Shown here one piece after another: positions 58,582-60,700 of a stretch of DNA of 64,000 nt. Every line of letters starts with the position of its first letter. The first letter of the stretch is position 1. The translations under genes and the position numbers were made by a program. The stretch lies in sequence record PQ529420, one strand, 5' to 3'. This DNA comes from Escherichia phage Eryne. A model generated the notes under the pieces. The model had not been told where the DNA came from. It ran no database searches and was given only the letters and a program-made list of their open reading frames with translations.

Positions 58582-59553
58582 TCACCATTTTGTATGGTTA
58601 GTCAAAAGTTGACGATGTTGAATCCAACCACAGAAGTTTCCACTCCACAAACGATGTTTACGATCCATGTGTGTAATACCTTCTTCCCAAGAAGTAGGGA
58701 ACGGAGGAATATTAATACCACCTTTCTGTTGTTTTAATCCTGACAAATCCATTTCTTTCATTGGTGTTGCCTGGTGTTCAAACGGAGATGCATGTACCTT
58801 TTGTCCAGACAGCAAACGAGAATAGATATCCAATGCTTTATCTTTAGTATCATTCAATTTACGATAACTTACCTGAGCGCAACAAGAAGCTGAAATAGCT
58901 TTTGCTTCCTCTTCTGTCAACATTTTCTCGTTGGAGAAGGTTTCACCCAAGAAATAACGGATCATACCAGTTTCTGGATCTCGATCACGATTAACGTAAG
59001 GTGTATGCCATTCCCCTGGGAAAAGAAGATATGGTTCAGAAGATTCATACAGTTTTTTAATTTCTTTAGCAAGAGCCTCAATAGTAGGATCTGCATCAGC
59101 ATCTACACGCAACCACAAGAAGTTTTCTAGCTCTGTAGTGGTTACTACAGTCTTCATACGCTGGAATGGTTCTAGTAGGCGGTTTGCAACCTGTTTATGA
59201 TAACCAGCAAGGGCAAACTCTTCTGCAAAACGTGCAGCACTTAGTGCAGCCAAGTCCCACCATTCTTTTGCAGTGTAACCTGCATCAATCAGGGCATCGT
59301 GATCTGTGCCTTTATCTTGCATACCTGGTTGGTTAGCACCAAAACGATAAGGACGTGCTGGAGATTGCCGTACCATTTCAATTAGAGTTTTAACAGGGAT
59401 AGCTCGACTTGATGCGGCATTACGAGAAAACAAACGATGCGTCATCAATTCAGAGTGAATGATTCGAGGATATTCAAGTTCAAAGGTAACAATATCCTTA
59501 CCTTCAGATGTTTGAGAGTGTGCAATAATTTTTGCTGAAATAGAGTTTGTCAT
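58582..59553 (-). CDS. thyX: flavin-dependent thymidylate synthase (ThyX-like)
   Basis: ThyX-type RHR...S...S.R signature region (HRLFSRNAASSRA); longer than typical ThyX. Confidence 0.6.
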   Translation of the reverse strand: MTNSISAKIIAHSQTSEGKDIVTFELEYPRIIHSELMTHRLFSRNAASSRAIPVKTLIEMVRQSPARPYRFGANQPGMQDKGTDHDALIDAGYTAKEWWDLAALSAARFAEEFALAGYHKQVANRLLEPFQRMKTVVTTTELENFLWLRVDADADPTIEALAKEIKKLYESSEPYLLFPGEWHTPYVNRDRDPETGMIRYFLGETFSNEKMLTEEEAKAISASCCAQVSYRKLNDTKDKALDIYSRLLSGQKVHASPFEHQATPMKEMDLSGLKQQKGGINIPPFPTSWEEGITHMDRKHRLWSGNFCGWIQHRQLLTNHTKW

Positions 59554-59562
59554 TATTTCTCC

Positions 59563-60153
59563 TTAAGGTAGTAAAATACTTTCAATTTCTTCCCACTGAT
59601 TATCTAAACCAGTGATAATTACATTAGGAAGTTTCTTTAACTCTTCCAAGTATGGATCTTCGTAAATAGTGTTGAAATATATTTTCAACGTTTCATCTGG
59701 AAATAGGACAAGATTTTCAGCCCTATCGTCAATAGTTACGTCGCAAGGTAATAAGTATTTTTCTTTTGTTGCGAAAAAGCCATTACCAGATGTTCTACTA
59801 AAGTCCACTTTATCTAAAGATCGTGTTACGTGTCTATATTTAGAACTAAGGTGTCCACCCTTAGTGTGGCTTGCTATAGATATATTAGCTCCATTTGCAA
59901 TTATACGATGAACAACATCTGTACTATTAGGTACTACTCCCATAGTATCATATAGATGTTGGTTATCCCAAAAAGAGTAAGGATCTACACCAAATTGCTT
60001 TTTAAAATCAGGAAAATATTTCGTAATATCATAATGCACAGTCTTATGTGCATTATCAAATTTGATATTAGATCTACTTACCGCATTTAACCAATTTAAC
60101 CATTCTATATCCGCAGGAGCTATTACTAAATCCCAATCACATACTAGACGCAT
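59563..60153 (-). CDS. hypothetical protein, possibly HAD-like nucleotidase (start uncertain, 60153 or 60267)
   Basis: C-terminal ...TIDDR motif; N-terminal HAD motif not canonical; track start overlaps tdk by 130 nt. Confidence 0.35.
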   Translation of the reverse strand: MRLVCDWDLVIAPADIEWLNWLNAVSRSNIKFDNAHKTVHYDITKYFPDFKKQFGVDPYSFWDNQHLYDTMGVVPNSTDVVHRIIANGANISIASHTKGGHLSSKYRHVTRSLDKVDFSRTSGNGFFATKEKYLLPCDVTIDDRAENLVLFPDETLKIYFNTIYEDPYLEELKKLPNVIITGLDNQWEEIESILLP

Positions 60154-60700
60154 TATTTCTCCTGTTATAACATTTTCTACACATTGTTTCGTAAATGTCT
60201 TCTCCCCCAATAACAATCTGTTCTTTAGAGTCGATAAGTCTAGCATTAAAAATAGCCTTTCTTCCACATTTACAAATGCTTTTCAATTCTGTAATTGAAT
60301 CTGCTATGGCTAATAACCGTTCAGAACCTTCAAACAATTCTGTAGCAAAATCTGTTTTAAGTCCATAGCAGAATACAGGAATATCGTAATTATCTACCAC
60401 ATCTCCAAGAATGTCAACCATATCTTTAGTTAGGAATTGTGATTCATCCACAAATACTGCATCTACTGGATTTTCTTTAAGCTGTGTATAAATTTCCAGC
60501 ATATCTTCTTTTGTTTTAACTGGTTTTGCTTCCTCTTTAATACCTATCCTAGAAGCAATAGCACAACCAGATCTGGTATCTAAAGCCGAAGTTAAAAGAA
60601 GAACTTTCATATTTCTCTCTTTATAGTTCCAAGCTGTTTGTAAAAGATGTGTGCTTTTACCACTGTTCATTGGACTATATCGGAAATAAAGTTTAGCCAT
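60137..60700 (-). CDS. tdk: thymidine kinase
   Basis: YSPMNSGKSTHLL P-loop and C-terminal CKCG...CRKCY zinc ribbon. Confidence 0.85.
   Translation of the reverse strand: MAKLYFRYSPMNSGKSTHLLQTAWNYKERNMKVLLLTSALDTRSGCAIASRIGIKEEAKPVKTKEDMLEIYTQLKENPVDAVFVDESQFLTKDMVDILGDVVDNYDIPVFCYGLKTDFATELFEGSERLLAIADSITELKSICKCGRKAIFNARLIDSKEQIVIGGEDIYETMCRKCYNRRNNASSM

What the first reader, a model, noticed from the sequence alone, without database searches (positions are those of the whole stretch)
58582..60700. ThyX-type rather than ThyA-type thymidylate synthase, paired with thymidine kinase
The cluster carries a flavin-dependent ThyX-like enzyme of 323 aa, longer than typical ThyX, next to tdk and a possible nucleotidase. 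Given the dTDP-sugar genes and methyltransferases nearby, thymidine metabolism in this phage may feed a modified-base pathway.
Basis: partly seen in the sequence, partly recalled or inferred. Interest (0 to 1): 0.35.

Follow-up and report, generated by a model that had tools for sequence, protein, structure and literature searches.

The report
Rearranged phage ThyX in nucleotide-supply cluster
This phi92-like coliphage carries an ordinary DNA-precursor gene cluster (flavin-type thymidylate synthase, deoxyribonucleotidase, thymidine kinase, ribonucleotide reductase); its only unusual feature is that the ThyX-like enzyme belongs to a large, uncharacterised phage family in which one active-site segment sits near the C-terminus instead of the N-terminus.

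Summary
The window is about 99% identical to Justusliebigvirus (phi92-like) coliphages. On the minus strand it encodes a 323-aa ThyX-like protein (58582-59553), a 196-aa NT5C/HAD-type deoxyribonucleotidase-like protein (59563-60153) and a type II thymidine kinase (60137-60700), next to nrdA and nrdB. No ThyA, DHFR, dUTPase or dCTP deaminase homologue was found in the closest complete genome.

The ThyX assignment is real but distant: Pfam Thy1 scores 36.9 bits over a partial match, and TIGR02170 scores 35.5 against a cut-off of 87.9. Most catalytic residues are kept. Arg78 becomes Thr, Tyr91 becomes Ala and Glu86 becomes Ala.

The extra length is not a simple extension. Profile comparison shows that the canonical N-terminal helices with the His53 motif lie at residues 208-264, alongside family-specific insertions. 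The family is large and looks largely phage-restricted; no solved structure or description of the rearrangement turned up.

The modified-base idea is not supported. Phi92-like phages are reported as exceptionally susceptible to restriction systems. Thymidine kinase argues against excluding thymine. In this phage rmlA is truncated by a deletion.

Best reading: an ordinary dTMP supply module built around a non-canonical ThyX.

The parts
58582..59553 (-). ThyX-like flavin-dependent thymidylate synthase candidate, 323 aa (gp204 equivalent of phage muut)
   Evidence: ORF found. Pfam Thy1 36.9 bits, partial match. PHROG 85 at E 5e-109. TIGR02170 35.5 bits, below its 87.9 cut-off. AF2 model pLDDT 82.6; top Foldseek PDB hits are ThyX-family structures. 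100% identical to the 'putative thymidylate synthase' of Escherichia phages Paula and cardinal.
59401..59442 (-). ThyX signature motif, residues 38-51 (T-H-R-L-F-S-R-N-A-A-S-S-R-A), aligned to T. maritima R78-H79-R80...S83...S88-G-R90-Y91
   Evidence: hhalign column mapping. Across 127 family members H39, S48, R50 and A51 are invariant, T38 is 96% and R40 is 80%. Inteins in homologues interrupt exactly here, after R40 and after S48.
58981..59511 (-). Core region, residues 15-191, colinear with T. maritima ThyX residues 55-210. Includes R125 (=Arg147), N144 and R149 (=Arg174), plus a family-specific loop at 52-94 with conserved G77-M78.
   Evidence: hhalign probability 89.5%, E 2e-6. Conservation.
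58741..58932 (-). Relocated module, residues 208-271, homologous to the N-terminal residues 7-70 of canonical ThyX (strand, two helices, 'H-x-S/T-P-F-E-H' motif). S229=Ser30, H254=His53, E259=Glu58, H260=His59.
   Evidence: Second, non-colinear hhalign hit, probability 81.9%, E 1.1e-5. A re-ordered alignment becomes colinear with canonical residues 1-210 at probability 97.5%, E 7e-12. An HMM of canonical residues 1-70 gave 119 domain matches among the 127 family members; apart from a few weak extras, those inspected lie at about residues 200-285. An intein sits right after H254 in P0161.
59563..60153 (-). NT5C/HAD-type 5'(3')-deoxyribonucleotidase-like protein, 196 aa. HAD motifs: D6-x-D8, S95/T97, K130/K132, D142-D143-R144.
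   Evidence: Pfam NT5C 22.5 bits against a 24.8 cut-off. Many homologues carry a precomputed PF06941 hit. Invariant motif residues. The only PDB profile hits are mitochondrial deoxyribonucleotidase, weak at E 0.5. AF2 pLDDT 94.7; the top 16 Foldseek hits are NT5C-family structures or designs on that scaffold, at E 4e-9 to 3e-7 and TM 0.67-0.81.
60137..60700 (-). Thymidine kinase (type II, Tdk-like), 187 aa
   Evidence: Pfam TK at E 1.2e-54, full length. NCBIfam NF003300 equivalog 238.9 bits against a cut-off of 195. PHROG 592.
55540..57801 (-). Context: class Ia ribonucleotide reductase large subunit NrdA, same strand, downstream of the thyX-like gene and separated from it by two small ORFs of unknown function (57813-58073, 58074-58484)
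   Evidence: Pfam Ribonuc_red_lgC at E 7e-99. ORFs. PHROGs of unknown function.
54092..55177 (-). Context: ribonucleotide reductase small subunit NrdB
   Evidence: Pfam Ribonuc_red_sm at E 1.9e-33.
50322..53026 (-). Context: dTDP-rhamnose genes rmlD (50322-51152), rmlC (51149-51703) and an rmlB-'rmlA fusion ORF (51716-53026) in which RmlA lacks its N-terminal part
   Evidence: Pfam RmlD_sub_bind, dTDP_sugar_isom and GDP_Man_Dehyd/Epimerase, plus NTP_transferase matched only at profile positions 159-243 of 245. A deletion of about 545 bp relative to muut. All 30 listed relatives are undeleted.

Best explanation
The three genes are part of a phage-encoded DNA-precursor module in a phi92-like (Justusliebigvirus) coliphage.

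The proposed pathway, all inferred:
- NrdAB reduces ribonucleotides.
- The ThyX-like enzyme methylates dUMP to dTMP, using FAD, NAD(P)H and methylene-tetrahydrofolate. Because this chemistry regenerates tetrahydrofolate, no phage DHFR is needed.
- Tdk salvages thymidine and deoxyuridine, for example from degraded host DNA.
- The NT5C-like phosphatase dephosphorylates pyrimidine dNMPs. With Tdk it forms a substrate cycle that tunes the dTMP/dUMP pool.
- Host Tmk and Ndk finish dTTP synthesis.
- dTTP is also the carrier for the dTDP-rhamnose genes nearby. That is a nucleotide-sugar role, not a base modification.

The ThyX-like protein is a member of a large phage family that keeps most ThyX active-site residues but has a non-canonical layout. 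The canonical N-terminal helices that carry Ser30 and His53 are encoded near the C-terminus (residues 208-264). Family-specific segments account for the other extra residues: the 52-94 loop, 176-207 and 265-323.

Shown here: homology, motif conservation, non-colinearity at profile level, gene order, and absence of other thymidylate synthase or DHFR genes.

Inferred: catalytic activity, substrate and product, oligomeric state, and the substrate cycle.
For: Identity and context:
- The cluster (window 57800-61400) is 98.7-99.3% identical to Justusliebigvirus genomes, where these genes are annotated as putative thymidylate synthase, thymidine kinase and NrdA.
- The cluster sits with nrdA and nrdB on the same strand. 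A glutaredoxin-like gene is annotated further downstream, next to the rml genes, in muut.

ThyX homology:
- Pfam Thy1 scores above its gathering threshold.
- The top Foldseek PDB hits are T. maritima ThyX, PBCV-1 ThyX and PolB, at probability 1.0.

Active site:
- Invariant counterparts exist for His79, Ser88, Arg90, Arg147, Arg174, Ser30, His53, Glu58 and His59.
- Arg78, Arg80, Ser88 and Arg90 are the direct dUMP ligands in T. maritima ThyX (PMC3498832).
- Three independent intein insertion sites in homologues lie right next to H39/R40, S48 and H254. This is typical of functionally critical sites.

Sole thymidylate synthase candidate:
- No ThyA, FolA, Dut, Dcd or Tmk homologue was found by tblastn in the complete muut genome plus the window.
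- None is annotated either.

Wide use as a housekeeping enzyme in lytic phages:
- 1034 phage records carry a family member, including ICP1, rV5-like phages, Pakpunavirus, N4-like phages and phiCbK-like phages.
- The family covers 4963 cluster representatives at 50% identity.

Unmodified DNA:
- Phi92-like phages are exceptionally RM-susceptible (PMC8594841).
- rV5 DNA is cut by XbaI (PMC3606486).

Neighbours:
- Tdk passes its NCBIfam equivalog cut-off.
- The NT5C-like fold and HAD motifs are present.
Against: - No family member has been assayed or solved, as far as I could find.
- The protein fails the TIGR02170 thyX equivalog cut-off, 35.5 against 87.9 bits.
- One of the four canonical dUMP ligands is replaced: Arg78 becomes Thr in 96% of the family. 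Tyr91 becomes Ala in 100%, Glu86 becomes Ala or Ser, and Gln75 becomes Glu. Substrate or mechanism could therefore differ.
- The three-dimensional placement of the relocated module could not be checked. The tools gave no model coordinates, and pLDDT is only 57-77 across residues 221-260.
- Sequential Foldseek alignment covers only about 155 residues, at TM about 0.5 normalised to the target.
- A nucleotidase next to a kinase could also mean something other than a regulatory cycle.
Confidence: 0.75

Rival explanations
1. The ThyX-like enzyme makes a non-canonical pyrimidine nucleotide (for example 5-hydroxymethyl-dUMP or another C5 derivative). This product, with the nucleotidase and the dTDP-sugar and glycosyltransferase genes, feeds a modified-thymidine pathway.
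For: - The enzyme is well below the thyX equivalog cut-off.
- It has family-wide changes at canonical substrate-contact positions: Arg78 to Thr, Tyr91 to Ala, Glu86 to Ala.
- dNMP phosphatases are a feature of thymine-replacing phages (own knowledge: PBS2, SPO1 group).
- rmlBCD lies 5.5-8 kb away. Four glycosyltransferase genes lie next to the replication genes in muut.
Against: - Phi92-like phages about 99% identical across this cluster are exceptionally susceptible to type I-III RM systems (PMC8594841).
- rV5, with a family member, is cut by XbaI at TCTAGA.
- Tdk passes its equivalog cut-off and would make dTMP.
- No hydroxymethyl-dU kinase, aminotransferase or other hypermodification genes are annotated.
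- rmlA is truncated in this phage, yet the rest of the region is intact.
- The family occurs in many unrelated lytic phages for which I know of no reported DNA modification (for the distribution; the rest is own knowledge).
Confidence: 0.06
2. The protein is a ThyX paralogue with shifted substrate specificity, like PolB, which methylates UMP as well as dUMP. It might act on dCMP or on a ribonucleotide instead. It would then serve something other than bulk dTMP supply.
For: - PolB (4p5a) is among the structural matches.
- Neofunctionalised ThyX paralogues exist (PMC5954106).
- Several substrate-contact residues differ from canonical ThyX.
Against: - The gene sits in a deoxynucleotide cluster with RNR and Tdk.
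- It is the only thymidylate synthase candidate in the genome.
- The residues that hold the dUMP phosphate and uracil in canonical ThyX are invariant: Ser88, Arg90, Arg147, Arg174.
Confidence: 0.1
3. The ThyX-like ORF is a decayed or non-catalytic relic, and dTMP comes only from host ThyA and from Tdk salvage.
For: - The match to canonical profiles is weak.
- E. coli has its own ThyA (own knowledge).
Against: - Conservation is very strong: 70% mean column identity among 44 homologues, with invariant catalytic-site counterparts down to about 40% identity.
- There are thousands of family clusters.
- Intein homing at three conserved motifs implies long-term selection on those sites.
- The AF2 model is confident overall, with pTM 0.82.
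Confidence: 0.03

Closest known systems
Canonical flavin-dependent thymidylate synthase ThyX/FDTS (Pfam PF02511, TIGR02170; T. maritima TM0449, PBCV-1 A674R)
   Same: - Homologous core, at hhalign probability 89.5% and 81.9% for the two segments.
- Best structural matches.
- Conserved counterparts of His53, His79, Ser88, Arg90, Arg147 and Arg174; the Arg80 counterpart (R40) is Arg in only 80% of the family.
- Genomic role as the only thymidylate synthase candidate, without a DHFR.
   Different: - Linear order differs. The canonical residue 7-70 segment lies at residues 208-271, and only a short hairpin precedes the ThyX motif.
- Arg78 becomes Thr, Tyr91 becomes Ala, Glu86 becomes Ala or Ser, and Gln75 becomes Glu.
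- About 100 extra residues carry family-specific invariant positions: K120, H183, R314 and G77-M78.
- It scores far below the equivalog cut-off.
- No solved structure has detectable sequence similarity beyond E about 0.5.
PolB, the ThyX paralogue of polyoxin biosynthesis (UMP/dUMP C5-methylase, PDB 4p5a)
   Same: ThyX fold and flavin-dependent C5 methylation. It shows that ThyX relatives can change substrate range.
   Different: PolB has the canonical order and sits in an antibiotic gene cluster. The phage protein sits with RNR and Tdk, and its match to PolB is no better than its match to true ThyX.
T4-type phage deoxynucleotide-precursor gene set (Td/ThyA, Frd/DHFR, Tk, NrdAB, NrdDG; own knowledge)
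   Same: Same logic: a large lytic myovirus brings its own RNR (aerobic, and in muut also anaerobic), a thymidylate synthase and a thymidine kinase.
   Different: A ThyX-type enzyme replaces ThyA, and accordingly there is no DHFR. No dCMP hydroxymethylase, dCTPase or glucosyltransferase system for base replacement was found.
5'(3')-deoxyribonucleotidases cdN/mdN (Pfam NT5C), which form substrate cycles with thymidine kinases in mammalian cells (own knowledge)
   Same: - Best fold matches, at TM about 0.7-0.8.
- HAD motifs DxD, S/T, K and DD are conserved.
- The gene is adjacent to, and overlaps, a thymidine kinase gene.
   Different: - Sequence similarity is marginal: Pfam 22.5 bits, below its cut-off, and a PDB profile E of 0.5.
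- PHROG 420 is labelled 'unknown function'.
- Substrate preference is untested.
Thymine-replacing phages (SPO1/SP8 hydroxymethyl-dU, PBS2 dU, ViI/M6/phiW-14 hypermodified T; own knowledge)
   Same: These also combine a thymidylate-synthase-family enzyme with dNMP or dNTP phosphatases.
   Different: They use ThyA-family hydroxymethylases and remove dTMP or dTTP. Here there is a ThyX relative plus a dTMP-forming kinase, and close relatives are fully restriction-sensitive.

Membership tests
ThyX / FDTS (PF02511, TIGR02170, EC 2.1.1.148) | Significant match to the Pfam Thy1 domain model | tested here: met
   36.9 bits against a gathering score of 24.8, but only profile positions 59-186 of 191 are matched.
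ThyX / FDTS (PF02511, TIGR02170, EC 2.1.1.148) | Score above the NCBIfam TIGR02170 equivalog cut-off | tested here: not met
   35.5 bits against a cut-off of 87.9.
ThyX / FDTS (PF02511, TIGR02170, EC 2.1.1.148) | ThyX signature RHRxxSxxxxSxR, with Arg78, Arg80, Ser88 and Arg90 as dUMP ligands (PMC3498832) | tested here: inconclusive
   The motif reads T38-H39-R40-x-x-S43-x-x-x-x-S48-x-R50. Three of the four ligands are kept. The first Arg is Thr in 96% of 127 family members, and R40 is Arg in only 80%.
ThyX / FDTS (PF02511, TIGR02170, EC 2.1.1.148) | Arg147 and Arg174 counterparts, and the His53 'HxTPFEH' motif | tested here: met
   R125, R149 and H254 are conserved in 126-127 of 127 sequences; S256 (125), E259 (120) and H260 (126) are nearly so. 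The His motif, however, lies near the C-terminus.
ThyX / FDTS (PF02511, TIGR02170, EC 2.1.1.148) | Canonical linear order of fold elements (strand 1, helices 1-2 with His53, strand 2, ThyX motif, helical domain) | tested here: not met
   There are two non-colinear profile hits. Colinearity over canonical residues 1-210 is reached only after moving residues 208-259 in front of residue 20. An HMM of the canonical N-terminus hits the C-terminal region in nearly all members.
ThyX / FDTS (PF02511, TIGR02170, EC 2.1.1.148) | ThyX fold | tested here: inconclusive
   The top PDB matches are ThyX or PolB at probability 1.0. Only about 155 columns align, at TM about 0.35 (query-normalised) and 0.5 (target-normalised). 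An order-independent superposition was not possible, because the tools gave no coordinates.
ThyX / FDTS (PF02511, TIGR02170, EC 2.1.1.148) | FAD cofactor, NAD(P)H- and CH2H4folate-dependent dUMP to dTMP activity, homotetramer with active sites shared by three subunits | not testable with these tools
   Needs biochemistry or a structure. No report on this family was found.
Thymidine kinase, type II (PF00265; NCBIfam NF003300) | Full-length match above the curated equivalog cut-off | tested here: met
   Pfam TK at E 1.2e-54, covering 2-176 of 176 positions. NF003300 scores 238.9 bits against 195.
5'(3')-deoxyribonucleotidase, NT5C family (PF06941), HAD superfamily | Match above the Pfam gathering score | tested here: not met
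   22.5 bits against 24.8 for the window protein. Fifteen of its 26 homologues carry a precomputed PF06941 hit.
5'(3')-deoxyribonucleotidase, NT5C family (PF06941), HAD superfamily | HAD catalytic motifs (DxD nucleophile and acid, S/T, K, DD) and an NT5C-type fold | tested here: met
   D6, D8, S95, K130, K132, D142 and D143 are invariant (T97 is nearly so). These columns align with mitochondrial deoxyribonucleotidase. The top 16 Foldseek hits are NT5C-family structures or designs on that scaffold, at E 4e-9 to 3e-7.
5'(3')-deoxyribonucleotidase, NT5C family (PF06941), HAD superfamily | Phosphatase activity with preference for (pyrimidine) deoxyribonucleoside monophosphates | not testable with these tools
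   Needs an enzyme assay.
Thymidine hypermodification / thymine-replacement systems | Virion DNA refractory to restriction, plus dedicated modification genes (hydroxymethylase, 5-hmdU DNA kinase, transferases) and removal of dTMP or dTTP | tested here: not met
   Close relatives are exceptionally RM-sensitive. No such genes are annotated in the complete related genome. Tdk is present. The virion DNA of this phage itself was not analysed.

The most novel reading that the evidence does not exclude
This large phage family may be a structurally distinct class of flavin-dependent pyrimidine C5-transferase. Its segment relocation and altered substrate contacts (Arg78 to Thr, Tyr91 to Ala, Glu86 to Ala; new invariant K120, H183 and R314) could go with a different active-site assembly. 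In the most novel version they would go with a different substrate or product than plain dUMP to dTMP.
Probability: 0.08. Interest if true: 0.7.

Novelty: new variant of a known kind. Interest (0 to 1): 0.3.

Why it matters
The gene cluster is routine. It tells us that this phage tops up dTTP independently of host ThyA and DHFR, so its replication should be less dependent on the folate-reduction step that trimethoprim blocks.

The more useful point concerns the 'thymidylate synthase' annotated in over a thousand phage genomes, including ICP1, rV5-like, phi92-like, Pakpunavirus, N4-like and phiCbK-like phages. It is not a standard ThyX. It fails the curated equivalog model, has a rearranged segment order, and lacks one canonical dUMP-binding arginine. 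I found neither a solved structure nor a published assay for it.

ThyX is studied as an antibacterial target and as a mechanistic oddity. A natural rearranged variant would therefore be a good test of which contacts are really essential. Annotation pipelines that transfer 'FAD-dependent thymidylate synthase' to this family do so without direct evidence.

Tried and rejected
- **Single-sequence phmmer against the PDB.** No hit for either the ThyX-like or the HAD protein. Profiles gave only marginal E values of about 0.5.
- **Pfam scan of the C-terminal 145 residues alone, and of an artificially circularly permuted sequence.** No extra Thy1 coverage. The relocation is therefore visible only to profile-profile comparison and to a dedicated N-terminal HMM.
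- **Partial internal duplication.** I tested whether the C-terminal 'GWIQHRQ' is a second RHR motif and whether the N-terminal hairpin repeats in the C-terminal module. Neither is significant, at hhalign probability 0.2% and 0.1%.
- **Literature searches.** I looked for a described circular permutation or a characterised divergent phage ThyX. Nothing relevant turned up. This is absence in the searchable library only.
- **Durham phage-modification paper.** It holds no data on this phage group.
- **Promoter scan of 53800-62000.** Matches were at the chance level, 27 found against 28.3 expected.
- **Scan of GTDB species genomes with family motifs.** One locus only, on a 60-kb MAG contig. The pattern-based search finds only close relatives, so 'phage-restricted' is provisional.
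- **Modified-base pathway.** Rejected as the main reading, for the reasons given under the rival explanations.
- **Order-independent structural superposition of the AF2 model on 1O26.** Not possible, because the tools expose no model coordinates.
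Full report
**What the window is.** The cluster region I queried (window 57800-61400) is 98.7-99.3% identical over its full length to Justusliebigvirus (phi92-like, Stephanstirmvirinae) coliphages such as muut, outra, EmilieFrey and cardinal. In the RefSeq record of muut the same genes are annotated as NrdA, two hypothetical proteins, 'putative thymidylate synthase', a hypothetical protein, thymidine kinase and an HNH endonuclease.

- **ThyX-like protein, 58582-59553, 323 aa.**
  - It matches Pfam Thy1 above threshold, at 36.9 against 24.8 bits. Only residues 22-170 match, to profile positions 59-186 of 191.
  - It matches PHROG 85 'thymidylate synthase' at E 5e-109.
- **Thymidine kinase, 60137-60700.** This is a full-length type II enzyme. 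Pfam gives E 1e-54, and NCBIfam NF003300 gives 238.9 against 195 bits.
- **HAD protein between them.**
  - Its real start is most likely the ATG at 60153 (196 aa, 'MRLVCDWDLV...'), not the GTG at 60267. Related records use that start, and all 26 homologues are 195-212 aa.
  - The gene then overlaps the tdk stop by 17 nt.
  - It is just under the Pfam NT5C threshold, at 22.5 against 24.8 bits.
  - It keeps the HAD motifs: D6-x-D8, S95/T97, K130/K132 and D142-D143.
  - Its only PDB profile hits are mitochondrial 5'(3')-deoxyribonucleotidase, weak at E 0.5.
  - A confident AF2 model (pLDDT 94.7) has NT5C-family structures or designs on that scaffold as its top 16 Foldseek hits. These score E 4e-9 to 3e-7 and TM 0.67-0.81, clearly ahead of generic HAD hydrolases.

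**How good a ThyX is it?** It is a distant one.

- A single-sequence search finds no solved structure.
- A 44-sequence profile reaches T. maritima ThyX only at E about 0.5.
- The curated equivalog model TIGR02170 gives 35.5 bits against a cut-off of 87.9.
- tblastn with T. maritima ThyX does not find the gene at all.
- The AF2 model (pLDDT 82.6, pTM 0.82) has ThyX, PBCV-1 ThyX and the paralogue PolB as its top PDB matches, at probability 1.0. Only about 155 columns align, at TM about 0.5 normalised to the target.

**Active-site residues.** The column mapping comes from profile-profile alignment. I checked it on 127 family members down to about 40% identity.

| Canonical (T. maritima) | This protein | Conservation in family |
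|---|---|---|
| His79 | H39 | invariant |
| Ser88 | S48 | invariant |
| Arg90 | R50 | invariant |
| Arg147 | R125 | 126 of 127 |
| Asn169 | N144 | 126 of 127 |
| Arg174 | R149 | invariant |
| Ser30 | S229 | invariant |
| His53 | H254 | invariant |
| Glu58 | E259 | 120 of 127 |
| His59 | H260 | 126 of 127 |
| Arg80 | R40 | Arg in 80% |
| Arg78 | T38 | Thr in 96% |
| Tyr91 | A51 | Ala in 100% |
| Glu86 | A46 | Ala or Ser |
| Gln75 | E35 | Glu |

Arg78, Arg80, Ser88 and Arg90 are the direct dUMP ligands of T. maritima ThyX (PMC3498832). The signature here reads T-H-R-x-x-S-x-x-x-x-S-x-R. The family also has its own invariant residues with no canonical counterpart: K120, H183, R314 and G77-M78.

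**Where the extra length comes from.** It is not a simple extension.

- hhalign of the family against a canonical ThyX profile gives two non-colinear hits:
  - residues 15-191 match T. maritima 55-210 (probability 89.5%, E 2e-6);
  - residues 208-271 match T. maritima 7-70 (probability 81.9%, E 1.1e-5).
- I then re-ordered the family alignment as 1-14, then 208-259, then 20-207. It aligns colinearly with canonical residues 1-210. The score rises from 49.6 to 82.9, with probability 97.5% and E 7e-12.
- An HMM built only from canonical residues 1-70 gave 119 domain matches among the 127 family members. Apart from a few weak extra matches, those inspected lie at about residues 200-285. The best E is 1e-7, and the window protein scores E 0.003 at residues 220-260.
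- The AF2 secondary structure there (strand, two helices, strand) matches the canonical N-terminal order.

So the canonical helices that carry Ser30 and the 'H-x-T-P-F-E-H' motif are encoded near the C-terminus in this family. Only a short beta-hairpin precedes the ThyX motif. The remaining extra residues are a conserved loop after the motif (52-94), a beta-rich linker (176-207) and a C-terminal tail (265-323).

Some ideas did not hold. Pfam's own HMM does not see the relocated piece. A second RHR-like motif and an internal duplication were not supported. I could not verify the spatial equivalence, because the tools gave no coordinates and confidence is moderate in residues 221-260.

**Family size and distribution.**

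- phmmer against 1.8 billion representatives finds 4963 clusters at E <= 1e-3 and 1498 at E <= 1e-30. Nearly all are about 290-360 aa.
- tblastn finds the family in 1034 of 50,697 phage records. These include rV5-like and phi92-like phages, Vibrio phage ICP1, Pakpunavirus and KPP10-like Pseudomonas phages, N4-like phages, phiCbK-like Caulobacter phages and Flavobacterium phages. Almost all are annotated as (putative) thymidylate synthase.
- A motif scan of 185,579 species genomes found one locus, on a MAG contig. The search has limited sensitivity.
- Longer members (524-654 aa) carry inteins with HNH or LAGLIDADG endonucleases. The inteins sit at three sites: after R40, after S48 and after H254. 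Inteins typically home into functionally critical motifs, which fits these being active-site elements.

**Function in context.**

- The closest complete genome has aerobic and anaerobic RNR genes and a glutaredoxin-like gene. It has no annotated or detectable ThyA, DHFR, dUTPase, dCTP deaminase or dTMP kinase.
- The ThyX-like gene is thus the only thymidylate synthase candidate.
- The absence of DHFR fits ThyX chemistry, which regenerates tetrahydrofolate (established knowledge; the ThyA-DHFR pairing and ThyA-ThyX anticorrelation are noted in PMC7824862).
- The most economical reading is a dTMP and dTTP supply module:
  - RNR supplies deoxynucleotides;
  - the ThyX-like enzyme handles de novo dTMP;
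  - Tdk handles salvage;
  - the NT5C-like phosphatase forms a substrate cycle with Tdk. This is by analogy with cdN/mdN and thymidine kinases, which is my own knowledge.

**The modified-base idea.** The context facts are right. rmlD, rmlC and rmlB lie at 50322-53026, and a C5-cytosine methylase lies at 40258-41247. The inference is not supported, for five reasons.

[quoted passage not shown] Two of its phi92-like isolates, EmilieFrey and PaulScherrer, are about 99% identical across this cluster.
- rV5 DNA is cut by XbaI (PMC3606486).
- A dTMP-forming kinase is the opposite of what thymine-replacing phages encode.
- No hypermodification genes are annotated.
- In this phage a deletion of about 545 bp, flanked by 12 bp of microhomology, fuses rmlB to the last third of rmlA. 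It removes RmlA's nucleotide-binding part. All 30 listed relatives are undeleted.

dTTP is the carrier for dTDP-rhamnose, so thymidylate metabolism and the rml genes are connected only in that trivial sense.

**Verdict.** The cluster is ordinary and already annotated in public records. The ThyX-like enzyme is a member of a very common but uncharacterised phage family. That family is best described as a rearranged variant of ThyX: it works like a ThyX by all conserved-site evidence, but it fails the equivalog model and the canonical segment order. Activity, product and quaternary structure remain inferred. Interest is modest.

Noticed in passing
window 51716-53026 (-), junction near 52096-52107: A 436-aa fusion ORF joins almost complete RmlB (dTDP-glucose 4,6-dehydratase) to only the C-terminal part of RmlA (NTP_transferase profile positions 159-243 of 245). 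Relative to phage muut, about 545 bp are missing, with a 12-nt overlap of the flanking blast pieces (microhomology). All 30 listed related phage records carry the undeleted version. The phage's own dTDP-rhamnose pathway therefore lacks a functional first enzyme.
   Followed up: yes
homologues P0133, P0139, P0250, P0161 (not in the window); sites correspond to window residues R40/L41, S48/S49 and H254/A255 of the ThyX-like protein: Family members of 524-654 aa contain inteins (Intein_splicing plus HNH, or LAGLIDADG). The inteins sit at three different positions, each directly next to a conserved catalytic-site counterpart.
   Followed up: partly
window 60746-61321 (-): A free-standing HNH endonuclease gene (PHROG 1985) lies immediately upstream of tdk, inside the nucleotide-metabolism cluster. 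It is possibly a homing endonuclease. A second HNH gene is annotated a few kb away in muut.
   Followed up: no
window 59563-60267 vs 59563-60153 (-): The mechanical ORF call for the HAD/NT5C-like gene is extended at its 5' end by 38 codons (GTG start inside tdk). The homologue-supported ATG start gives 196 aa, with the HAD DxD motif at residues 6-8 and a 17-nt overlap with the end of tdk.
   Followed up: yes
window 61906-61925 (both strands): A strong GC-rich hairpin (8 bp stem, AAAGGGGC...GCCCCTTT) flanked by T-runs on both strands, that is, a bidirectional terminator-like site upstream of the gene block that contains tdk and thyX.
   Followed up: no
phage records MG065639, MG065645, MG065656, MG065689, MG065653, MG065677: Records labelled 'Campylobacter phage' are 98.4% identical to this E. 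coli Justusliebigvirus region, or carry rV5-like copies of the ThyX-like gene. The host labels look doubtful (possible mislabelling or contamination).
   Followed up: no
muut record 107413-110589 (L003 7414-10590), outside the window: Four consecutive glycosyltransferase genes lie next to the primase/helicase and DNA polymerase genes. Together with rmlBCD, their target (virion proteins, host glycans or something else) is unknown. Relatives are nevertheless restriction-sensitive.
   Followed up: no
window 57813-58484 (-): Two small conserved ORFs of unknown function (86 and 136 aa; PHROGs 15807 and 15711) sit between the thyX-like gene and nrdA, inside the nucleotide-metabolism block.
   Followed up: no
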